NCBI GenBank assembly: GCA_012517765.1
Contig: JAAYUI010000026.1
Location: 31,843 to 95,842 of the forward strand
Direction of reading: 5' to 3'
Length of the DNA: 64,000 bases
Source of the DNA: Caldisericales bacterium
Lineage (GTDB): Bacteria; Caldisericota; Caldisericia; JAAYUI01
The first letter of the stretch is position 1. Each line of letters opens with the position of its first letter. The position numbers and the translations under genes are program-made. A model generated the notes under the pieces. It was given only the letters and a program-made list of their open reading frames with translations, searched no databases and was not told the origin of the DNA. Of the stretch, positions 4,261 through 44,000 are shown piece by piece.

Positions 4261-5433
4261 TCACCTAGAAATTTTGTAACAGGTTGTTTTATTTTTGGAT
4301 TCAACAAAGAGGAGCTCACCATCCTGAATGATGTTTGTAACACCCTCTCCAAGGTTAGTTACTGAAAGCTCTCTGCCTGTTTTTGTATCACACAGAATGG
4401 CAAGCGTTGTCTGGTTTTCTCCAAATTTTGTCCGGACAAACATATCTTCAATGGAGAACATGAATTCCCTGACCGTTCTCTCTACCCTTGTTTCCCAAGC
4501 TTTGGTCCCTGATTCCGGATCGAACGCATACATGCTGAAATTTCCATGCCCAGTTGATACAACTGATATGAAAAATTCTTTTGTGGTCACCATCCCAAAC
4601 GGCCTGTCAAGTTTTACCTTTGTTTTTCCGGTGAAGATGTTTCTGCAGAATATGGACAATCCTCCTGCGACATCACAATCATGGCCAAGGAAGAATATGT
4701 AATCTCCAACAAAACACGGGGTATTTCCCGTCATGCCATCAAGATTTTTTGGGGCAAGCGGGCAGTCGTTCTGGGGTGTTGCCCATAATTGTGATTTTGT
4801 TTTCAGGTCTATACACATGACATGGTTCCCCGTCCAGAACTGCAGTCCTTTGTATGTCCCAGCCATTCGCTTTAGCGGCCCGGACCCTGTGCCTGCCTTC
4901 CAGAGCAGTTGTCCGTTTCTAGAATCAAAACACTGGATGATGCCATGCTGGATCAAGTAGAAATTATTCCCATCCACGAATGGCATTTTTTCCGGGTTGA
5001 TATCATCAAGCATTCCAAGTGACCATATCTGCTTGCCATCATTTTTGTTGAAACAATTGAATGAGTACTTGTCACCTTCGCGCTGGAGAACAAAGAGCCT
5101 ATCACCTTCGCGCTGGAAATTGTCGGCCCTTATGGCGTCCCAGTTAATGGGTTCCCTCTTGCCTTCTTTCCACAATTGGTTGCCAGTCTTGGAATCAAAG
5201 CATGCAAAAAGGGTCTGGTTTTCCATGTTTGGCCAGCCTGCGACAATGACACCGTCTTTTGCTACGAGGGGGATTGTCCTTCTCATCTCCCAGAGCTTTG
5301 CAAAGGATGCCTCGCCTCTTGCGATCCGGGCACTCACAGATGACAGGGCCATGACTACGCAAATTAGTGCAACTATCAGCTTGTTTTCTCTGTTTCTCAC
5401 CTTGAGTGGAATTTTATTCCATACTCTGTCCAA
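4261..5433 (-). CDS. membrane-anchored PQQ-like (BamB-like) beta-propeller repeat protein
   Basis: N-terminal TM (LIVALICVVMALSSV). Repeated blade motifs GNQLWK, GKQIWS, GQLLWK, SQLWAT, TKAWET. TTG start 3 nt after the mgtE stop; the start is uncertain. Confidence 0.7.
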   Translation of the reverse strand: MDRVWNKIPLKVRNRENKLIVALICVVMALSSVSARIARGEASFAKLWEMRRTIPLVAKDGVIVAGWPNMENQTLFACFDSKTGNQLWKEGKREPINWDAIRADNFQREGDRLFVLQREGDKYSFNCFNKNDGKQIWSLGMLDDINPEKMPFVDGNNFYLIQHGIIQCFDSRNGQLLWKAGTGSGPLKRMAGTYKGLQFWTGNHVMCIDLKTKSQLWATPQNDCPLAPKNLDGMTGNTPCFVGDYIFFLGHDCDVAGGLSIFCRNIFTGKTKVKLDRPFGMVTTKEFFISVVSTGHGNFSMYAFDPESGTKAWETRVERTVREFMFSIEDMFVRTKFGENQTTLAILCDTKTGRELSVTNLGEGVTNIIQDGELLFVESKNKTTCYKISR

Positions 5434-5436
5434 ATA

Positions 5437-6813
5437 CTATAGCCCAAGCAGCAGCTTGGCCAGTGAGAAATAAATCAGAAGTCCACTCATGTCAACGATT
5501 GTTGTCAATGCCGGGCTTGCAATGAGTGCCGGATCAAGCTTGATCGCAGATACAACAAGTGGCAATGTGGCACCGACTACAGTTGATGTTACAACCTGTA
5601 TTGAGAGGGCAAGAGAAATCATTATGCCTATATTGATCAGTGTATACCCTGCTGGCAATACCTCCCCGCTGGAGAGGAGTATTACTTTCAGGAAGGCGAG
5701 CAGTCCCAAAAGAACGCTCATCATGATTCCTGTGGCAAATTCCTTGCCTATTATCCTGAAGAAATGCTTTGGCGTTATCTCTTTGAGTGCGAGTGCCCTT
5801 ATGATGACCGTTGAGGACTGGGTGCCACAGTTGCCGCCGGTATCGGCAAGCATTGGCATGTACAGAGCAAGAATGATCAGTTTGGAAAGCGAATCCTGGA
5901 AAGTGTGGAGGATGGTTCCGCTTATCAGTCCCAATGCGGCCAGCGAGGCCACCCATGGTATTCTTTTGAGGAAGTTCTGGAATGGAGATGATTTTAGATA
6001 TGCCATTTCCCCTGCTGTCGGGACGATCTTTCCCATTCCGAGTATGTCTTCTGTTTGTTCCTCGGTTATGACATCTGCTGCATCATCATGCGTTATTATG
6101 CCAACTAGCTGGCCCCTGTCGTTTATTACAGGAATGGCAATAAGGTCATATTTTTGTATTGTCTCTGCAGCTTTTTCCTGGGGATCGGTTGTTTTTACCA
6201 TCTCGAGGTCTTCAAACATGACATCGGCCACTTTTTTGCGAGGATCATTTACAATCAGGTTTCTGAGGGAGATCATGCCCAAGAGCCTGTTTGAGCCATC
6301 AACCACATAAATATAATAGATCGTTTCCTTGTGCGGCCCTTCAAGCCTGACTTTCTCTGTCGCCTGGGCTATTGTCATGCTGGGGCCGACCGTGACGTAG
6401 TCAGCACTCATTAGGGCGCCACATGTACCTTCTTCCTGTTCGGCCAGTGATTTGAGCTGCTCCCTTTTTGCTTTTGCAAGCAATGGCATCAGGCTGTTCG
6501 AGAGGGGTTCGGGCAATTCATTGATGAGGTCTGCACCCTCATCGGAAAGCATGTGGGAAATGAGTGATGCGAGGTCTTCTTTTTTCAGTTTTTCGGCCAG
6601 CTCAACCTGTGTGTCCAGGTCAAGATAGCCCATGATTTCTCCGGACTGGTGTATCTCTATGCCCCTGAGGATCCTGAGTATTGTCTCCGGGTCGAGTTCT
6701 TCAATTGCCTCTGCAATGTCTGATGAGGAAAGCTCTGCACAATATTCCTCAATTGTCTTGAGCTTGCCCTCTTCAAGTAGTGACAGGAGTTGTTCCCTGA
6801 TTTCGTTTTTCAT
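5437..6813 (-). CDS. mgtE: magnesium transporter MgtE
   Basis: Start reset to the second Met (ATG 6813) with GGAGG (6821-6825) 7 nt upstream. Has the MgtE N-domain, tandem CBS region and C-terminal 5-TM channel domain (…GGNCGTQSSTVIIRAL…). Confidence 0.95.
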   Translation of the reverse strand: MKNEIREQLLSLLEEGKLKTIEEYCAELSSSDIAEAIEELDPETILRILRGIEIHQSGEIMGYLDLDTQVELAEKLKKEDLASLISHMLSDEGADLINELPEPLSNSLMPLLAKAKREQLKSLAEQEEGTCGALMSADYVTVGPSMTIAQATEKVRLEGPHKETIYYIYVVDGSNRLLGMISLRNLIVNDPRKKVADVMFEDLEMVKTTDPQEKAAETIQKYDLIAIPVINDRGQLVGIITHDDAADVITEEQTEDILGMGKIVPTAGEMAYLKSSPFQNFLKRIPWVASLAALGLISGTILHTFQDSLSKLIILALYMPMLADTGGNCGTQSSTVIIRALALKEITPKHFFRIIGKEFATGIMMSVLLGLLAFLKVILLSSGEVLPAGYTLINIGIMISLALSIQVVTSTVVGATLPLVVSAIKLDPALIASPALTTIVDMSGLLIYFSLAKLLLGL

Positions 6814-6950
6814 GCGCTTGCCTCCAAAAAAATGACTTGATGGCATGAGGCAAGCTTAAGAAGGGGTTAGGCCGGCCTCATGGCGCTGTTTGTACAACTA
6901 GGGTAAGGGCTAGGGCTATCAGATTCTATAGCTTCCATGAGGACCTCCTT
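6814..6950 (-). promoter_or_regulatory. structured mgtE 5' leader with four alternative-pairing segments (putative translation-coupled attenuator)
   Basis: RNA segments: S1 GGUCCUCAUGG (6945-6935), S2 CCAUGAGGCC (6883-6874), S3 GCUUGCCUCAUG (6855-6844), S4 GAGGCAAGC (6824-6816, covers 4 of 5 nt of the mgtE SD). S1:S2 pairs 8 bp (+2 after a bulge), S2:S3 8 bp, S3:S4 9 bp. Neighbouring pairings share nucleotides and are mutually exclusive. Confidence 0.45.
6867..6938 (-). CDS. putative 23-aa proline-rich leader peptide upstream of mgtE
   Basis: AAGGAGG (6944-6950), 5-nt spacer, ATG 6938. Translation MEAIESDSPSPYPSCTNSAMRPA, TAA at 6867-6869. The start codon lies in S1 and the last codons in S2 of the leader. 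Too short for the ORF track. Confidence 0.35.
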   Translation of the reverse strand: MEAIESDSPSPYPSCTNSAMRPA

Positions 6951-6969
6951 CTTTTTTTGCTTTTTATGT

Positions 6970-6998
6970 AGTTAAACAGCATGCCCGTGGTTTGTCAA
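6970..6998 (-). promoter_or_regulatory. candidate mgtE promoter
   Basis: Minus strand: TTGACA (6998-6993), 17-nt spacer, TTAACT (6975-6970) preceded by TG (extended -10 like). The -10 is weak. Confidence 0.3.
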
Positions 6999-7098
6999 CA
7001 CTATTTTATTTAGCTCCTGAAATTCGCTCCAATACAACATTAGTGGGCATCTTGGAATTTGACCTGGTTGGAGGGGGTAAAAGATTATTTTGAAGGAT

Positions 7099-7917
7099 CT
7101 ATTTTGCTTGTTTTTTGGTAGTGCATTCAACTCCGCATGAAGCAAGGAATCCGTCCAGATCGGTGTCTGTTCTTATCCCAAGCCTTGTGAGCGGGAAATC
7201 ATACCTTGTGGGATCATCAGGGTCGAATTTTCTGAAATTTTCAGTTATCTGAAGGGCCGTTTTCAGGTTTGCCTGGTTCCTGTCCGTGAGGCCAAGCTTT
7301 CTGCAAATGTTGAACATGTGTGTGTCCAGCGGGACGATTAGCCCCTTTTTTGGAACACCATTCCAGCCTCCAGGGTCGACATCGCTGTCCCTGACCATCC
7401 ACCTGAAATACAAATTCAGCCTTTTACAGGCAGAATCTTTCTCGGGTGCTGGAACAAGGCTGTTTTTGCACCCCCCGCCTATTATGCTGGACGTGAAAAA
7501 GCATTGTGCTTTAATTATCTCACCACCAGATTTTTTCAGGCCATGGACAAAACACTCGTTGAGACTGCCAAATTCCTTCAGGACACGCCTTGTTCCCAAA
7601 AGCATGGCGACAATCTCCTCACCAGTCGTAAATCTGTGCTTGAATCCTGCAAAGAGTTTTTCAAGGAAGCTGGGAGAAGTTTCAAGAAGAAACAGCCTTG
7701 GTGAGCTGCCAAGAACATCCAGGACCTTCCGGACAGACTTGAGGATCTGTGCGACCCTGCCATAAGCCAGCGATGAGGCAATGAGCCCAACTATTTCCCT
7801 GTCGCCAGTGTCCTGGTAAAGATACAGGAATTCCAGCGGGTCAGGATGCACAAACTCTTTTTTAGCGTATTGTTGATAAAGCTGCTCCAACCTTTCATGG
7901 AGCAGATCACTGTTCAC
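7099..7917 (-). CDS. TIGR02757/DUF2400-family protein
   Basis: Start reset to GTG 7917, which overlaps the hrb stop (GTGA, 7914-7917). The sequence [30 protein letters not shown]... is consistent with my recollection of this family. Last gene of the fprA-hrb transcription unit. Confidence 0.7.
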
Positions 7918-8615
7918 TCCGGCGAGAATTCTGACTTGGCAGCGCCGCAGATTGGGCAGACCCAATTGTCGGGGAGCTTTTCAAAAGGTGTTCCCGCCGG
8001 AACTCCATTGTCCGGATCGCCCTTTGCAGGGTCATAAACGTAGCCGCAAACGTTACATATGTACTTTTTCATGGTTTTTTCCTCCTGTGGTTTGTTTTCT
8101 TCTTTTGCAGTTTCCTGGAAAGTAGGGGCCGATTTTGGGGCCTTGCCTTTTCTTTGGTGGTAAATCTCGTAAGTGAGAGGTTTCCCATCTCTGAGGATTT
8201 CGGCCGAAATCACCTCCCCCAAAAATACTGTGTGGGTGCCGGCATCAAGCTGGCCAACCACCTTTGCCTCCATTGTGGCAAGACTATTTTCTATTACCAG
8301 TGGGCAACCCAAGCCTTCTTTGTAGACTGACTTCGAGAGTTTGTCAGTGTCCCTGCCACCCCTGAATCCGAACAGGCCAATAAATTCCATTGGCGTGTTT
8401 TCTTCCAGGACCGATACAGCAAAAACCTTTCCCTTTTCAATTATTTCATGGGTGAGGTTTTCCTTGTTGATTGAAATGGCGATTTTTGGAGGTTCCGATG
8501 TGACCTGGAAGACCGTGTTTGCGATCTGGCCGTTTGCTCTGTTGCCGTCGCACCGCGATGTGACAACGTACATGCCGTAAGATATTGTCCAGAGGGCTTT
8601 TTTGTCCAGTGGCAT
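7914..8615 (-). CDS. hrb: flavin-reductase-domain / rubredoxin fusion (high-molecular-weight rubredoxin, Hrb-like)
   Basis: Start reset to ATG 8615 (AAGGAG 5 nt upstream). N-terminal flavin reductase-like domain. C-terminal rubredoxin with CNVCGY...CPICG (two CxxC pairs). Confidence 0.85.
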
Positions 8616-8623
8616 TTTTCTCC

Positions 8624-9841
8624 TTACTGTTGCGGTAGCTTGCAACCTTCTCTAAGTTTTTCTCCAAGCAGAGCACCTAGCTCATAGCATTTTTTCAGAT
8701 CATCGTCTTTTGGAACGTGTTTTACCTTTAATGGGTCGGCAACGGGATTTACCTTCATCTCGCTCAGTATCTTTGCAATCTGGTCTGCTGCCTCGCCACT
8801 CCAGCCGTATGACCCGAATGAGGCACCTATGAGGTTCCTTGGTGAAAGGCCTTTCAGGTATGTAAGAATATCTGCAACCCTTGGCAACATGTTGCGATTG
8901 AGCGTTGACGAGCCAATTATCAAAGCACCTGCCTCAGTCAGTTCTGTGGCTATGAATGTCCTGTGTGATGATTCGAGTGGGTAAAGCATGACTTCGATGC
9001 CCTTCGAGTCAAGGCCCTCACAGATTGCTTTTGCCATCATTTCGGTTGAGTGCCACATCGTGTCGTAGACAACGATTGCCCTCTCGCAAAATTTCTGTGC
9101 GGCCATTTTTTTGTACAATTCGAGGATTTGTGGAATCCTTGACCGCCAGATTGGGCCATGGTCCGGTGCGATGGTTTTTATGTCCAGGTTCAATCCACCG
9201 AGCTTGTCGAAGAACTTGAGGACAAAATCGGAGTAGGGAAGAATTATGTTTGCATAGTAAGTTTTTGCTTCCCACTCCAGCATGTCCCAGGGGATCTCGT
9301 CGTCAAACTTTTTGTAGGTGCCAAGGTGCATTCCGAATGCGTCCTGCGAGAAAAGCAGTTTTTCGCTGTCCAGATAAGTCATCATGCTGTCTGGCCAGTG
9401 GAGCATCCTTGACTCGATGAATGTCGCATTCATGTTACCAAGATTGAGGGTTTCGCCGTCTTTTACGGGCGTTATCTCGCCTATGCCATGCAGCTCGTCC
9501 CTTAGCACAGAAGCTCCTACAGTGGAAGCAAAGACTTTTTCAGGTTTTATTGCTTCCATTGCCTCAATCAGGCACCCTGAATGGTCCATTTCGGCATGAT
9601 TCGAGATGATGTAATCAATTTTTGAAGGATCGACCACTGAAGAAATCCTTTCCATCATCTCTGAGAAATGCGGTTTCTTGACAGTGTCGATAAGTGTTAT
9701 CTTGTCAGCCATGACAAGATAGGCGTTGTAAGTCGTTCCCCTTGGTGTCCTGTATCCATGGAATTCCTTGAGGGAGCGGTCAATGACCCCGACCCACCAC
9801 ACTTTATCGGTAACCTTTACTGCTTTATATATCCCTGACAT
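8624..9841 (-). CDS. fprA: flavodiiron protein (FprA/Roo-type O2/NO reductase)
   Basis: 405 aa. Metallo-beta-lactamase-like diiron domain ([11 protein letters not shown]) plus a C-terminal flavodoxin-like domain. GGAGGA SD. Confidence 0.9.
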
Positions 9842-41082: not shown

Positions 41083-44000
41083 TGAAAAAAATATCTATTG
41101 CTCTGATTTTTGTTCTTTTGATCTCGGTTTTTCTTCCAACATGGCCGAGATTTTCAACTGCCCAGCAACCCACCCAGGTTGTTGAAAGACTGTTGATGTT
41201 TGACCAGCCCGATGCAAAAAATCTGGCAGAGTTGAAAACAGAAACCTCGCTGGCGCAGTCTGGTGCAATATCCGAGCTGGAGGCCCTTTCCTCATCGGGC
41301 GAGGTGCTCTCTTACAAACCATTCTGGATACAGAACTGCATTCTTGTCACAGGCACCCAGAAGGCCTTTTCGCGCCTCGAGAGCCTTGGCTCTGTGAGGG
41401 CTGTTTTGCCCAACACAAAAATTTACCTGCCCCATGCCGGGCGATCGAAGGTGGAAACTGACATAGAGTGGAACCTCAAGGCAACGCATGTGCCAGAGGC
41501 ATGGGCCATGTCGGCAAAGGGTGATGGCGTGCTCGTCGGTGTTCTGGACAGTGGTTGTGATTCCACCCATCCGGAGCTTGCCGGAAAAGTCCAGAGTTTT
41601 GCTTCTTTTGACAGTTATGGCAGGAAGACTGGCCAAACTATTGCAAGCGACAGTGATGGCCATGGAACAAGCGTCTGCTCGGTCGTTTGTGGCGAAACGC
41701 TTGGCGTTGCCCCAAAGGCAAAATTGATTGTAGGTTCTGTCATCCCTGACGGCTCGGGAAACATTTCCCAGATTTTGGGCGGGTTGCAGTGGATAACCGA
41801 CCCTGACGACGACCCATCAACCAATGATTACCCAAGGGTTGTCAATATGTCGTTTGGCGCTTCCGGGACAATGGACTACCTGAAGACCGCAATAAAAAAC
41901 CTCAGAACATTTGGAATATTGCCCATTGCCTCGATAGGCAACGATGGCGAAGGTTCATCGAGCAATCCTGGCAATATGCCAGAAGTCCTCTCCGTTGGCT
42001 CTGTGGACTACGGGCTCAAGGCGTCTGGTTTCTCCGGCGGTGCCGAAGTGGTGTGGGAGAACGAAGACGACTCACTGACACTGGTTAAACCTGATTTATG
42101 TGCACCTGGGGAAAACATCAGGGTGGCCACCCCAAGAAGGACCTATGATGTTGCCGATGGCACCAGCTTTTCTTCCCCACATGTCGCCGGAATCTGCGCG
42201 CTTTTGCTTGAAAAGAGGCCCGGCATATCCCCTGAAGACCTGACCTATCTCCTCTCAAAGACTGCTGTCGACCTTGGTAGGCCAGGCAGGGACAGGCGCT
42301 ATGGCGAGGGCCTTGTCGATGCAAGGGACAGCCTTTCACTTGCCCTGTCAATGGAGCCAAAAACTGTTTCTGTGACGTGGCCCACCGGTTCTGCCCTCTG
42401 GGGAGACATAAATGTCACCTCTGGTGACCGTTCGTATGTGGTTTCAAGGGAACAGGCGAAATCGTTTACTTTTCTCTCCAGATCAGGCGAGGAGACAAAG
42501 ATAGGGGCTTTCGGTTTTGAATCCTCAACGATTGCAGGCAGTTCCATTGAGCTAAAACCTCTTCCGGAGCATTCGCTTGTTCTGACGGTGCACGAAGAGG
42601 GCACCCAGAACAATCTTGACAGCAAAGTCACCCTGAAAGATTCCCCGTTGCCGACATTTGAGGCACCTGACGGAACATTAAAGCTTGCTTTACCGGAGGG
42701 CGAGCACGAATTTGTTGCGACTTCTTTTGGCCACGCATCGAGGAGTTTCAGGATAAAACTCTCGTCTGATTTGTCTGCCTCCATGCCTCTCGAGAAGGCA
42801 AAATTAGCCTTTATTGACACAAGAAAACCAGTTTGGGGGATGAGCCCGGAACCGATCCGTGGAAAGCTCAAACCAGCTTTGGATTCAACAGGATTGCCCT
42901 ATTTTATATGGTCAACCTTGCAAGGTAATGTGACAGCCAAGCAACTTGGTGCTTTCCAGTATGTGGTATGGAACTCCGGTGGTTCACTTTCGGCCAAAGA
43001 CGTTGGCATTCTTGGCGGATACATGGACATGGGAGGTAAACTTGTCCTTACCTCCGATTTTTATGGCGCATCCTTCATCGGCCAGACCGATTCTACGGTT
43101 TTTCTGGACTCATATTTTGCCTGCAGACCAAGCGATGAGGGTGGAGCGGCATTAACCCACTGGGACGGAAAGACTTACAAGAGCCTTGCGCTTGGCAACC
43201 CAAGCGCCTATTTTTCCACTTCAAATCTTGTGCCGATGTCCGAAAAGGCAAAAATCCTGCTTTCTTATGCTGGTACAAGCCCCAAAAAGTATGCAGGGTT
43301 GAAAGTCTCAACCCTCAAAAACCAGGGAATAATCCTTGGGTTTACGTTCCCAAATGTGGCTTCGGAAGAGGACAGGGGCTGGCTTTTAAAGCTTTGCATC
43401 GATAGTTTTGAAGACACATTGCCATGGAAGGCCGATATAAAAACTGACGATGGTAAATTGCCTTCCGGAAACATAGCAATTGGCGGGGAAACCATAGATT
43501 TTACCGGGGGCAATATTTTTGTGCCTCACCTCCCGCTTGTGGCAACAAAAATCGAAATTTCCAGTTTTGGCTATAAAAAGGTCATCCTGGAGGATAGGCC
43601 GGAAAACCTCCCTTCGCAGATAATGCTTGAACCTGCCCCCCTGTCTGGAGTTTCTTTTGAGTCCAACTCTGATGGATACCTCATTTTCAATGACAAGAAT
43701 GTGGAGCCCATTAAGTTCTCAGCAAAGGGTGAAGTCAGATTGCCCGAAGGCAAATACAAAGTTGTGGCTGTATCGAGGGGAAGGGATCCTGTGGAAGTTG
43801 ATGTCGTTGCCCCAGGCAGGATTGCTCTTAATATGAGGCAGTCCCAGAAGGCAGCAGTGGTTTTTGAGGAAGCTGATGACATAAAGCTGACGCTGAGCGA
43901 AATCGGCATACCCTACAGGACCATCCAGCAGCCAACTGTCGCAGACATTGTGTCCTCGGGTCTTATTGTCTGGAACCATCCGGAGAAAATCTCAAGCTCC

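What the first reader, a model, noticed from the sequence alone, without database searches (positions are those of the whole stretch)
6814..6998. mgtE leader: proline-rich leader ORF plus a 1:2 / 2:3 / 3:4 alternative-pairing switch that sequesters the mgtE Shine-Dalgarno (mgtL-like logic, no obvious M-box)
Seen directly on the minus strand:
- A strong SD (AAGGAGG 6944-6950) lies 5 nt from ATG 6938. It opens a 23-codon ORF, MEAIESDSPSPYPSCTNSAMRPA, with stop at 6867-6869. Four codons are Pro, three of them in SPSPYP.
- There are four complementary segments. S1 is GGUCCUCAUGG (6945-6935) and contains the leader AUG. S2 is CCAUGAGGCC (6883-6874) and forms the last leader codons. S3 is GCUUGCCUCAUG (6855-6844). 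S4 is GAGGCAAGC (6824-6816) and covers 4 of 5 nt of the mgtE SD.
- S1:S2 pairs 8 bp (+2 after a bulge), S2:S3 8 bp, and S3:S4 9 bp. Adjacent helices share nucleotides, so they are mutually exclusive.

Inference: a ribosome that reaches the leader stop covers S2, so S3:S4 forms and mgtE translation is off. A ribosome stalled on the Pro codons keeps S1 from pairing with S2. S2:S3 then forms and the SD is free, so mgtE is on.

Established knowledge: Salmonella mgtA and mgtCBR use Pro-codon leader ORFs (mgtL, mgtP) to couple Mg2+/proline status to expression. Bacillota mgtE is classically controlled by the M-box riboswitch. I could not recognise M-box-like conserved elements here.
Basis: partly seen in the sequence, partly recalled or inferred. 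Interest (0 to 1): 0.75.

Follow-up and report, generated by a model that had tools for sequence, protein, structure and literature searches.

The report
Leader-peptide switch upstream of mgtE
In front of a magnesium-channel gene (mgtE) of a Caldisericia bacterium lie a strongly conserved 23-codon acidic, proline-rich mini-gene and three mutually exclusive RNA helices, which probably make exposure of the channel's ribosome-binding site depend on how smoothly ribosomes read the mini-gene; this design is known from Salmonella mgtA and mgtB, but I found no description of it for mgtE.

Summary
No M-box or other Rfam family matches. The organism is an uncultured Caldisericia bacterium from anaerobic digesters. 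The MgtE protein has no relatives between 52% and 90% identity, so orthologous leaders come only from one shallow clade: 45 loci, 8 leader haplotypes.

Within that clade the leader diverges 2-11%, against 26-30% at four-fold sites of mgtE. S3, S4 and codons 5-14 (ESDSPSPYPS) are almost invariant. The S3:S4 loop drifts at a near-neutral rate. The ORF is intact in all haplotypes. The S2:S3 helix stays fully paired, with one compensatory pair.

A simple ribosome-position folding model reproduces the proposed switch. A second Caldisericia lineage has the same four-segment logic with unrelated sequence. About two thirds of 75 related mgtE loci from a dozen or more named lineages carry a coding leader ORF (MSDSDGSHSC...[DE][DE]PGPR) followed by an SD-sequestering helix. 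The window's leader is not a detectable sequence member of that family.

The best reading is an mgtL/mgtQ/ermC-like translational attenuator. Mg2+ as the signal, and proline versus acidic codons as the sensor, remain inferred. An RNA-only switch is the main rival.

The parts
6970..6998 (-). Probable sigma-70-type promoter: -35 TTGACA (6998-6993), 17-nt spacer, extended -10 TG (6978-6977) and -10 TTAACT (6975-6970). The inferred transcription start is near 6964.
   Evidence: Read directly. It is conserved in all 8 haplotypes, with divergence 0.069. The consensus scan did not list it because the -10 hexamer matches only 3 of 6 positions. The assignment is an inference.
6944..6950 (-). Leader Shine-Dalgarno AAGGAGG, 5 nt before the leader ATG.
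   Evidence: It is invariant in all haplotypes.
6867..6938 (-). Leader ORF of 23 codons plus TAA, encoding MEAIESDSPSPYPSCTNSAMRPA.
   Evidence: The ORF is intact and of the same length in 8 haplotypes from 45 loci.
6897..6926 (-). Codons 5-14 (ESDSPSPYPS), the candidate sensor segment. It holds acidic residues followed by three CCT Pro codons in a hexanucleotide tandem, AGCCCT AGCCCT TACCCT.
   Evidence: Divergence is 0.022, and both substitutions are synonymous. CCT makes up only 19% of Pro codons in 33 long ORFs of the window.
6935..6953 (-). S1: the 5' strand of the long helix. The core GGUCCUCAUGG is at 6945-6935. The strand contains the leader SD and AUG.
   Evidence: MFE structure, inverted repeats I3 and I6, pair counts.
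6858..6883 (-). S2: the 3' strand of the long helix. The core CCAUGAGGCC is at 6883-6874 (codons 19-22). The extension GCCU/CCUUCUU runs across the stop codon. S2 pairs alternatively with S3.
6844..6855 (-). S3, GCUUGCCUCAUG. It is the anti-SD arm: 6855-6847 pairs with S4, and 6851-6844 pairs with S2.
   Evidence: Divergence is 0.028.
6826..6843 (-). Loop of the S3:S4 hairpin, including the U7 run at 6832-6826.
   Evidence: Divergence is 0.24, close to neutral.
6816..6825 (-). mgtE Shine-Dalgarno GGAGG (6825-6821) and S4 GAGGCAAGC (6824-6816).
   Evidence: From 6825 to 6814 there are no substitutions in three comparisons.
5437..6813 (-). mgtE, 458 aa, with MgtE_N, CBS and MgtE domains. Its ATG is at 6813-6811.

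Best explanation
This is a translational attenuator in the mgtE 5' leader. The time a ribosome spends on the first ~14 codons of a 23-codon leader ORF decides whether the mgtE ribosome-binding site is hidden.

Resting state (shown by folding): S1, which holds the leader SD and AUG, pairs with S2, which holds the last leader codons. S3 pairs with S4, which holds the mgtE SD. Both initiation sites are closed.

Inferred steps:
1. A ribosome loads on the leader SD during transcription, before S2 has been made.
2. If it translates smoothly, it reaches the stop codon and covers S2 but not S3. S3:S4 forms and mgtE stays off. After release, S1:S2 locks the leader shut.
3. If it lingers on codons ~2-14, S1 is covered or held apart and S2 is free. 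S2 pairs with S3 as soon as S3 emerges. S4 stays single-stranded and mgtE is translated. The lingering would occur on the acidic E2, E5 and D7 followed by S-P-S-P-Y-P.

By analogy with Salmonella and E. coli MgtL and MgtQ, the likely signal is low cytoplasmic Mg2+. Low Mg2+ makes translation of acidic/Pro nascent chains inefficient. Limiting Pro-tRNA or EF-P are alternative signals. Low Mg2+ would then raise the amount of MgtE channel.
For: - Anatomy and energetics. The S2:S3 duplex is -18.0 kcal/mol against -9.6 +/- 2.2 for shuffles (p = 0.007).
- Ribosome-position folding: the RBS-opening cost is 13.4 kcal/mol with no ribosome, 6-10 with the P site on codons 1-15, 16 on codons 17-21, and 12 at the stop. 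The footprint geometry fits exactly.
- Selection: the leader diverges 0.02-0.11 against 0.26-0.30 at four-fold sites of mgtE. S3 is 0.028, S4 to the ATG 0.000, the loop 0.24, and the stop-S3 spacer 0.18. Codons 5-14 are 0.022 with only synonymous changes. Codons 15-23 are 0.11 with 5 of 7 changes nonsynonymous.
- Base pairing across haplotypes: S2:S3 is 100% paired in all haplotypes, with one compensatory C-G to U-A pair. S1:S2 changes are all Watson-Crick to G.U.
- Likelihood of translation: the SD is AAGGAGG with 5-nt spacing, as at real genes of this genome.
- Independent recurrence: L024/L127 come from a different Caldisericia lineage, with MgtE 50% identical and the same DUF2400-mgtE synteny. 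They carry AAGGAGG-ATG MDDCDSRQCCADAFIEKSQASVLPLR with the same four-segment logic. The opening cost there is 13.9 with no ribosome, 3 on codons 1-15 and 16 on late codons.
- Context: 49 of 75 related mgtE loci carry an acidic-N-terminal or [DE][DE]PG leader ORF. Controls gave 3 of 75 and 0 of 75. The coding signature is clear. Each ORF is followed by an SD-sequestering helix supported by covariation.
- Precedent: mgtQ-mgtB (PMC8092293) and mgtL/corL (PMC11552253). In those leaders, too, a stem sequesters the uORF SD.
Against: - There is no experimental or expression data, so translation of the ORF is unproven.
- In the equilibrium structure the leader SD and AUG are themselves sequestered.
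- If pairing across a ribosome is allowed, stalling at the Pro codons does not open the RBS.
- Codons 5-14 are conserved even at third positions: 2 changes in 30 position-comparisons (10 third positions x 3 pairwise comparisons), against about 8 expected. That could reflect an RNA-level constraint instead of a peptide-level one.
- The syn:nonsyn ratio over the whole ORF is unremarkable (about 4 to 5-6), and substitutions split 1:3:6 across codon positions 1, 2 and 3 (p ~0.15).
- Covariation is statistically weak because the clade is shallow.
- Non-consecutive prolines (PxPxP) are not classic EF-P stall sites.
- The window's peptide and its S3:S4 helix are not detectable homologues of the widespread family. 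That family supports the logic, not membership.
- In GC-rich family members an ORF:S3 anti-sequestor cannot be told apart from shuffles.
Confidence: 0.5

Rival explanations
1. RNA-only switch. S1:S2 would be the P1 stem of a ligand- or Mg2+-stabilised fold. The conserved interior, nt 6926-6897, would be its core. Stabilising P1 withholds S2, so S3:S4 closes the mgtE SD. Loosening P1 lets S2:S3 form. The ORF would be incidental or secondary.
For: - P1 (S1:S2), then the anti-sequestor (S2:S3), then the sequestor (S3:S4) is the classic layout of a translational OFF riboswitch.
- Codons 5-14 are conserved at all three codon positions.
- The leader SD and AUG are buried in the most stable fold.
- Mg2+-sensing leaders exist, such as the M-box.
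- Riboswitch candidates have been proposed upstream of mgtE: the mgtE and mgtE-II motifs (PMC11109978).
Against: - No Rfam family matches.
- The interior of P1 is predicted to be largely unstructured apart from two small hairpins.
- A gene-quality SD with ideal spacing and an ORF kept open in all haplotypes would be a coincidence.
- The same position in related mgtE leaders holds demonstrably coding ORFs, with no consensus structure over the ORF.
Confidence: 0.22
2. Plain translational coupling or dampening, with no sensing. The hairpin keeps mgtE translation low. Any leader translation transiently opens it by disrupting S1:S2 and so freeing S2. MgtE output then simply follows leader initiation frequency. 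The peptide sequence matters little.
For: - The RBS-opening cost falls from 13.4 to about 9 whenever a ribosome occupies the leader start.
- In the wider family a terminating ribosome overlaps S3 and lowers the cost to 3-6.
- MgtE channels are already gated by cytosolic Mg2+ at the protein level through the MgtE_N and CBS domains (established knowledge).
Against: - Purifying selection is concentrated on ESDSPSPYPS.
- Acidic and Pro composition recurs in unrelated mgtE leaders.
- In the window the stop lies 11 nt before S3, so the terminating ribosome barely reaches S3 (cost 12).
Confidence: 0.15
3. Transcription attenuation through Rho. The C-rich, G-poor, unstructured stretch inside the ORF would act as a Rho loading site when the leader is not translated. 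This would resemble the mgtA and corA leaders. The SD hairpin would be secondary.
For: - Codons 5-19 contain 15 C and 8 G and are predicted to be unpaired.
- mgtA and corA use Rho downstream of their uORFs (PMC11552253).
Against: - There is no evidence for Rho activity or a termination site here.
- There is no intrinsic terminator.
- The most conserved elements are the SD-sequestering arms, which points to control of translation.
Confidence: 0.06

Closest known systems
Salmonella mgtQ-mgtB translational control (Choi et al. 2021, PMC8092293)
   Same: A short uORF directly upstream of a Mg2+-transporter gene has acidic residues at positions 2 and 5; the window has E2 and E5. Mutually exclusive stem-loops are present. 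A translation-inhibitory stem-loop sequesters the transporter's RBS and is released by a 2:3-type alternative helix. The output is at the level of translation.
   Different: - mgtQ has 8 codons and lies between genes inside an operon. The window's ORF has 23 codons and lies in a 5' leader.
- The transporter is the P-type ATPase MgtB, not the MgtE channel.
- There is no sequence similarity.
- The window adds an S1:S2 helix that also closes the leader's own SD.
Enterobacterial mgtL-mgtA and corL-corA leaders (PMC11552253 and references in it to Park 2010, Gall 2016 and Chadani 2017)
   Same: The leader ORF combines acidic residues with alternating prolines (xPxPxP). Inefficient uORF elongation at low Mg2+ gives the ON fold, and efficient elongation gives the OFF fold. 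A stem sequesters the uORF's own SD.
   Different: Their output is Rho-dependent transcription termination. Here the regulated helix hides the SD, so the output is translation. The transporter family and phylum differ. No homology is detectable, and no Rfam leader model matched.
ermC/cat-type translational attenuation (established knowledge)
   Same: Four segments pair 1:2 and 3:4 at rest. A ribosome stalled in the leader ORF frees segment 2 to pair with 3, which exposes segment 4 carrying the SD of the downstream gene.
   Different: - In erm and cat the stall is induced by an antibiotic bound in the exit tunnel. Here the presumed trigger is the ion or translation status.
- Here S1 overlaps the leader SD and AUG instead of the body of the ORF.
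M-box (ykoK) Mg2+ riboswitch, RF00380
   Same: A cis-acting 5' leader in front of mgtE, expected to shut the gene off at high Mg2+.
   Different: There is no match to the covariance model, even with permissive filters. The M-box is a three-helix metal-binding aptamer, typically with a terminator, and has no leader ORF.
Widespread mgtE leader ORF plus SD-sequestering helix found here (MSDSDGSHSC...[DE][DE]PGPR; anti-SD GGUUCRCCUCC pairing with GGAGGUGAACC-AUG)
   Same: - It sits at the same position, upstream of an MgtE 45-52% identical to the window's.
- The ORF is preceded by an SD and has an acidic/Ser N-terminus and an acidic-Pro motif.
- The stop lies a few nt before the anti-SD arm.
- The helix runs from the SD to just before the AUG.
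   Different: - The window's peptide is not recognised by the family HMM: rank 258 of 3170 scored (N-terminal profile) and 14 of 3565 scored (full-length profile), out of 3931 sORFs.
- The window's hairpin is not found by the family covariance model.
- Family ORFs are about 45 codons, and most family helices enclose a GC-rich inner hairpin.
- The S1:S2 lock is seen only in the two Caldisericia lineages.
Breaker-lab 'mgtE motif' (Thioalkalivibrio) and 'mgtE-II motif' (Leptotrichia) riboswitch candidates (PMC11109978)
   Same: Both are orphan structured leaders upstream of mgtE. In the mgtE motif the SD and AUG sit at the base of a stem.
   Different: Both have a narrow distribution in other phyla and are described as multi-stem aptamers without a uORF. 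Their alignments were not available here, so no direct comparison could be made.

Membership tests
M-box riboswitch (RF00380) | Match to the Rfam covariance model (conserved three-helix Mg2+-binding core) | tested here: not met
   There was no hit in three scans: 4 kb at E<=10, the whole window at gathering score, and a 311-nt sensitive scan. The only match was a spurious plus-strand miRNA at E=3.4.
mgtL/corL-type Mg2+-responsive leader ORF | Short ORF with acidic and proline residues in the 5' leader of a Mg2+ transporter gene | tested here: met
   The ORF is MEAIESDSPSPYPSCTNSAMRPA, with E2, E5, D7, P9, P11 and P13, and lies upstream of mgtE. Pro makes up 17% of the peptide, against 4.9% in long ORFs of the window.
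mgtL/corL-type Mg2+-responsive leader ORF | Mutually exclusive stem-loops that overlap the ORF and are selected by uORF translation | tested here: met
   Met computationally only. S1:S2, S2:S3 and S3:S4 share nucleotides. The ribosome-position folding profile switches between them.
mgtL/corL-type Mg2+-responsive leader ORF | Output by Rho-dependent transcription termination in the leader | not testable with these tools
   No termination data are available and there is no intrinsic terminator. The regulated helix hides the SD, which points to translational output.
mgtL/corL-type Mg2+-responsive leader ORF | Expression responds to cytoplasmic Mg2+ through uORF elongation efficiency | not testable with these tools
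   This needs reporter, toeprint or ribosome-profiling experiments.
mgtQ-type translational control | Translation-inhibitory stem-loop that sequesters the transporter gene's RBS, relieved by an alternative helix that involves the uORF region | tested here: met
   S3:S4 is 9 bp and covers 4 of the 5 SD nt. S2:S3 is 8 bp plus 3. The arms are near-invariant (0.028 and 0.000) while the loop drifts at 0.24.
mgtQ-type translational control | Ribosome-destabilising acidic residues near the uORF N-terminus are required | tested here: inconclusive
   E2, E5 and D7 are present, and E5 to S14 are invariant at the amino-acid level. Whether they are required is untested.
   A family HMM was run against the 3931 sORFs of the window. 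The leader ranked 258th of 3170 scored (N-terminal profile, E=83) and 14th of 3565 scored (full-length profile, E=10).
   R1 hits about 43 of 80 related loci at the mgtE start with E<0.01. It does not hit the window's leader. The only window hit is at 42972-43044, E=5.6.
   In the window the stop lies 11 nt before S3 and S4 ends 2 nt before the ATG. In the family the stop lies about 6 nt before the anti-SD arm.
ermC-type translational attenuator | Four segments pairing 1:2 and 3:4 at rest, with 2:3 exposing the downstream SD when a ribosome stalls in the leader ORF | tested here: met
   Met computationally only. Stalling itself is untested.
Breaker mgtE / mgtE-II motifs | Match to the published consensus alignments | not testable with these tools
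   The alignments are not in the held supplements. If the motifs are in Rfam 15, they did not match.

The most novel reading that the evidence does not exclude
Sensing of Mg2+ by the ribosome through acidic/proline leader peptides has been studied mainly in enterobacterial mgtA, mgtB and corA. It may instead be an ancient, phylum-spanning way to control MgtE channels. On this reading the window holds a compact Caldisericia version: 23 codons and a four-segment translational attenuator with a self-locking leader SD. A dozen or more other named lineages would use a conserved ~45-codon peptide whose [DE][DE]PGP core may define a new class of Mg2+-sensitive arrest or destabilisation motif. That core resembles the viral 2A motif D-x-E-x-NPGP, a resemblance I recall from memory and did not test.
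Probability: 0.35. Interest if true: 0.8.

Novelty: new variant of a known kind. Interest (0 to 1): 0.6.

Why it matters
MgtE is the most widespread bacterial Mg2+ channel. Its only well-established RNA-level control is the M-box riboswitch.

If this leader works as proposed, translation-coupled Mg2+ sensing would extend beyond enterobacterial mgtA, mgtB and corA. It would reach MgtE and a deep-branching, uncultured phylum, with a purely translational output.

Together with the large leader-peptide family found in related mgtE loci, it offers many natural sequence variants. These could show which nascent-chain features make a ribosome Mg2+-sensitive. All of this can be tested directly in cell-free translation at defined Mg2+.

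It also warns that some 'orphan riboswitch' candidates upstream of metal transporters may be leader-peptide attenuators.

Tried and rejected
- Known riboswitch: three Rfam scans of the window and two scans covering 40 related mgtE loci gave no M-box or other cis-regulatory family.
- Intrinsic terminator: none found. S3:S4 is not followed by a U tract.
- Orthologous leaders at intermediate distance: none exist in the collections. MgtE identity drops from 96% to 52%. The metagenome scan gave 5 loci. P0004/L126 has only a 71-nt spacer and no leader ORF, and L127 has the same leader as L024.
- Sequence membership in the wider leader family: the peptide HMM test and the covariance model test were both negative for the window.
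- Family-wide test for an ORF:S3 anti-sequestor: not distinguishable from shuffles in GC-rich members. Mean z was -0.4 and the Fisher combined p of 0.02 was driven by a few loci. I do not claim it for the family.
- RBS sequestration as an outlier: with 130 nt of context, mgtE ranks 8th of 40 ORF starts. Only with the full leader (13.4 kcal/mol) does it exceed all of them.
- dN/dS-type evidence inside the clade: there are too few substitutions (about 10 events).
- Pfam and NCBIfam for the peptides: nothing.
- Functional small protein: considered and set aside. The peptide is hydrophilic and its C-terminal third varies.
- Literature: searches combining mgtE with 'leader peptide', 'uORF', 'mgtL' and 'ribosome stalling' found no description of an mgtE leader ORF. 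One broad search was uninformative.
Full report
**1. What is there**

On the minus strand, the 285-nt spacer between a DUF2400 gene (ends 7099) and mgtE (ATG 6813-6811) holds the following elements:
- A probable promoter: TTGACA at 6998-6993, a 17-nt spacer, and TGtTTAACT with the -10 hexamer at 6975-6970. This is my reading. The consensus scan did not list it, because the -10 hexamer is weak.
- A strong SD, AAGGAGG (6950-6944), 5 nt before an ATG at 6938.
- A 23-codon ORF, MEAIESDSPSPYPSCTNSAMRPA, with TAA at 6869-6867.

S4 covers 4 of the 5 nt of the mgtE SD GGAGG (6825-6821). The repeat finder recovers all three complementarities (I3, I2, I1).

The minimum-free-energy fold of the leader is -46.2 kcal/mol, with z = -2.9; 2 of 200 shuffles fold as well. 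It consists of two parts:
- An extended S1:S2 helix of 19 bp (6953-6935 with 6883-6858), which buries the leader SD and AUG.
- The perfect 9-bp S3:S4 hairpin, which buries the mgtE SD.

No intrinsic terminator is present.

**2. Not a known RNA family**

Rfam 15 gave nothing in three scans:
- E<=10 over 4 kb.
- Gathering score over the whole window.
- A sensitive scan of 6790-7100 alone.

So there is no M-box.

**3. Organism and available relatives**

The MgtE protein (458 aa) has one close cluster at 96% identity, with 13 members. Their sources name them Caldisericia or Caldisericales bacterium and 'bacterium ADurb.Bin132'. After that, identity drops to 52% or less.

Orthologous leaders therefore come from one shallow clade. 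I collected 45 loci, which collapse to 8 leader haplotypes.

**4. Evidence from the clade**

The ORF is intact and of equal length in all 8 haplotypes.

The leader is strongly constrained. Compared with the window:
- Four-fold degenerate sites of mgtE differ by 0.26-0.30.
- The 151-nt leader differs by 0.02-0.11.

The substitutions fall as the helix model predicts (summed over three comparisons):

| Region | Divergence |
|---|---|
| S3 | 0.028 |
| S4 to the ATG | 0.000 |
| S3:S4 loop | 0.24 (near neutral) |
| Stop-to-S3 spacer | 0.18 |
| ORF codons 5-14 (ESDSPSPYPS) | 0.022 (2 changes, both synonymous) |
| ORF codons 15-23 | 0.11 (7 events, 5 nonsynonymous) |

Pair counts on the 8-haplotype alignment (A8) gave:
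- Resting structure: 97.6% of cells paired. The changes in S1:S2 all convert Watson-Crick pairs to G.U pairs. There were no compensatory pairs.
- S2:S3 helix: 100% paired, with one compensatory pair. GCC changes to GUC in the last codon together with G to A at the first S3 base, turning C-G into U-A. With so few sequences this is not significant, since 94 of 500 shuffles reach it.

Within-clade data therefore show function and fit the helices, but they cannot prove them by covariation.

**5. Does the proposed switch work on paper?**

I used a footprint of about -14/+15 nt around the P site.
- A ribosome at the stop covers ORF nt 53-82. That covers S2 (56-65) and leaves S3 (84-95) free.
- Codon 14 is the last P-site position that leaves S2 uncovered.
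- Codons 1-5 cover S1.

I then folded only the RNA 3' of the ribosome and calculated the free-energy cost of opening the mgtE RBS:

| Ribosome position | RBS-opening cost (kcal/mol) |
|---|---|
| None | 13.4 |
| Codons 1-15 | 6-10 (minimum at P9 and S14) |
| Codons 17-21 | 16 |
| Stop | 12 |

This pattern was obtained for the three clade haplotypes folded (window, L022, L023). The MFE retains S1:S2 and S3:S4 in all five haplotypes folded.

The S2:S3 duplex (-18.0 kcal/mol) is stronger than in shuffled ORFs (-9.6 +/- 2.2; p = 0.007).

There is a caveat. If pairing across the ribosome is allowed, a ribosome on the Pro codons leaves the cost at 13.4. The ON state therefore needs steric exclusion of S1:S2, a queued ribosome on S1, or the kinetic head start that S2:S3 has because S4 is transcribed about 20 nt later.

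A second caveat concerns context. With only 130 nt of upstream sequence, the mgtE RBS cost (9.7) ranks 8th of 40 ORF starts in the window.

**6. Independent recurrence**

L024 and L127 come from another Caldisericia lineage. Their MgtE is 50% identical to the window's, and they share the DUF2400-mgtE synteny. Their leader has:
- A TTGACA promoter.
- AAGGAGG-N5-ATG opening the ORF MDDCDSRQCCADAFIEKSQASVLPLR.
- An anti-SD near the ORF end that pairs with the leader SD.
- A segment spanning the stop codon (GCUGACAUC) that pairs with GAUGUCAUCC. That sequence pairs alternatively with GGAUGACA, which holds the mgtE SD and start.

The RBS-opening cost there is 13.9 with no ribosome, about 3 with a ribosome on codons 1-15, and 16 on late codons. 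The sequence is unrelated but the logic is the same.

**7. The wider context**

I surveyed 80 genome loci encoding MgtE proteins 44-52% identical to the window's. They come from a dozen or more named lineages: Thermodesulfobacteriota, Planctomycetota, KSB1, Sumerlaeota, Acidobacteriota, Ignavibacteriota/Bacteroidota, Spirochaetota, Lentisphaerota, Kiritimatiellota, WOR-3 and Syntrophorhabdus, among others.

Most of them carry an SD-preceded leader ORF of about 45 codons. Its N-terminus is conserved as M-[SNG]-D-[SP]-D-G-S-H-S-C, and it has a second motif, [DE]x[DE][DE]-P-G-P-R. Shorter versions keep only [DE][DE]PG[PSA].

- Frequency: by simple criteria, 49 of 75 loci have such an ORF. The reverse-complement control gave 3 of 75 and the internal-sequence control 0 of 75.
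- Coding signature: the ORFs are coding. Single-nucleotide codon differences fall 144/100/366 on positions 1/2/3. The syn:nonsyn ratio is 314:296 in frame, against 167:435 and 56:516 in the other two frames.
- Anti-SD helix: the stop lies about 6 nt before an anti-SD arm (GGUUCRCCUCC) that pairs with GGAGGUGAACC just before the AUG.
- Structure support: RNAalifold predicts only this helix plus an inner hairpin, with compensatory changes in 6 of 16 pairs. It predicts no consensus structure over the ORF.
- Covariance model: a model of this element finds it at the mgtE start in about 43 of the 80 loci.
- Protein databases: the peptides occur only as 'hypothetical protein', with no Pfam or NCBIfam family. 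There are 88 representative clusters at E<=0.001 among 1.84 billion.
- Rfam: none of the 40 loci scanned has an M-box.

The window's leader is not a detectable sequence member of this family:
- The family HMM ranks its peptide 258th of 3170 scored (N-terminal profile) and 14th of 3565 scored (full-length profile), out of the 3931 sORFs in the window.
- The covariance model does not hit its hairpin.

I therefore use the family as support for the principle that mgtE in this clade is preceded by a translated acidic/Pro leader ORF and an SD-sequestering helix. I do not use it as a family assignment.

**8. Mechanism**

The best-supported explanation is a translational attenuator.

Shown by sequence and folding:
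- Two closed initiation sites at rest.
- Three mutually exclusive helices.
- A footprint geometry in which a terminating ribosome masks S2 but not S3.
- Purifying selection focused on the helix arms and on codons 5-14.

Inferred:
- The ORF is translated co-transcriptionally.
- Slow elongation over the acidic/Pro segment keeps S2 available for S3 and leaves the mgtE SD open.
- Low Mg2+ is the condition that slows elongation.

The last point rests on precedent:
- MgtL combines prolines and acidic residues that make its translation intrinsically inefficient, and higher Mg2+ counteracts this. The uORF SD is sequestered in a stem in the mgtA and corA leaders (PMC11552253).
- In mgtQ, Asp2 and Glu5 are needed to release the mgtB RBS from an inhibitory stem-loop through alternative pairing, whereas the Pro codon is not needed (PMC8092293).

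The window's peptide has E2 and E5, and then xPxPxP like MgtL. I recall the MgtL sequence from memory. The formal layout is that of ermC-type attenuation (established knowledge).

Whether acidic residues, Pro codons or both are the sensor is open. The three Pro codons are all CCT, which accounts for 19% of Pro codons in the window's long ORFs. They lie in a hexanucleotide tandem, AGCCCT AGCCCT TACCCT.

**9. Rivals**

- An RNA-only switch is the main rival. P1 would be S1:S2 and the conserved interior would be a ligand- or Mg2+-binding core. Conservation of codons 5-14 even at third positions favours it. The gene-quality SD and ORF, and the coding leaders in related loci, weigh against it.
- Sensing-free translational coupling.
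- Rho-dependent attenuation using the C-rich unpaired ORF interior.

The last two are less likely. None of the three is excluded.

**10. Novelty**

My literature searches found no description of a leader ORF for mgtE. The known mgtE leaders are the M-box and two narrow riboswitch candidates, the mgtE and mgtE-II motifs (PMC11109978). I could not compare those two candidates directly.

The window's element is best filed as a new variant of a known kind: mgtL/mgtQ-like sensing with an ermC-like translational output, in front of mgtE, in Caldisericota. All functional statements are computational inferences.

Noticed in passing
L025-L101 (e.g. L064:985-1206, L084:986-1206, L079:957-1176), upstream of mgtE: An apparently undescribed leader-peptide family is widespread upstream of mgtE. 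It is an ORF of about 45 codons, MSDSDGSHSC...[DE]x[DE][DE]PGPR..., ending about 6 nt before an anti-SD arm (GGUUCRCCUCC) that pairs with GGAGGUGAACC-AUG. It occurs in 49 of 75 loci from a dozen or more named lineages and shows a clear coding signature. There are 88 representative clusters in the protein library, all unannotated. The [DE][DE]PGP core resembles IRD-type acidic/Pro sequences and the viral 2A NPGP motif; the latter resemblance is from memory.
   Followed up: partly
L033, L045, L052, L085, L082, L038, L060 (upstream of mgtE): Short versions of the leader ORF keep only the acidic-Pro-Gly core near the N-terminus: MSKSDDPGSW, MNDGEDPGS, MPDSKEPGAS, MISEKEDPGPR and MEENDDPGPS. This suggests that [DE][DE]PG is the minimal functional unit of the family.
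   Followed up: no
L020, L039, L048 (spirochaete-type mgtE leaders): A sub-type has N-termini MESECNS, MEVEGST and MDIEGST, and a long (11-13 bp) SD-sequestering helix. In equilibrium folding that helix stays closed wherever the ribosome sits. These leaders may work differently, for example through unmasking by the terminating ribosome.
   Followed up: partly
window 6952-6959 and 6825-6832 (minus strand): The A7 tract just upstream of the leader SD (gCAAAAAAAg) is perfectly complementary to the U7 tract in the loop of the S3:S4 hairpin next to the mgtE SD (I4). This could be a loop-to-5'-tail contact. Both tracts are shorter (A5 and U4) in most other haplotypes.
   Followed up: no
window 6897-6914 (minus strand): The SPSPYP codons form a hexanucleotide tandem, AGCCCT AGCCCT TACCCT. 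It uses the minor Pro codon CCT three times and is invariant in all 8 haplotypes apart from one synonymous TAC to TAT change. The constraint may act on codons or on the RNA, not only on the amino acids.
   Followed up: partly
window about 7015-7060 (minus strand), upstream of the -35 box: An inverted repeat, CTCCAA...TTGGAG, sits in a conserved part of the spacer (divergence 0.11 against about 0.27 neutral), between the DUF2400 stop and the mgtE promoter. It may be a regulator-binding site or the 3' end structure of the upstream gene.
   Followed up: no
window 4261-9841 (minus strand); also L001, L024, L126, L127: The gene order is conserved: flavodiiron protein, flavin reductase-rubredoxin fusion, DUF2400, mgtE, PQQ-like beta-propeller, DUF6144. 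The DUF2400-mgtE adjacency is shared by three Caldisericia-like lineages. One of them (L126) has only a 71-nt spacer and no leader ORF.
   Followed up: partly
L102 and L105 (clade haplotypes), position equivalent to window 6825: In two haplotypes the first G of the mgtE SD is A (GGAGG becomes AGAGG). This base is the one SD nucleotide outside S4, so the change weakens the SD without touching the helix.
   Followed up: no
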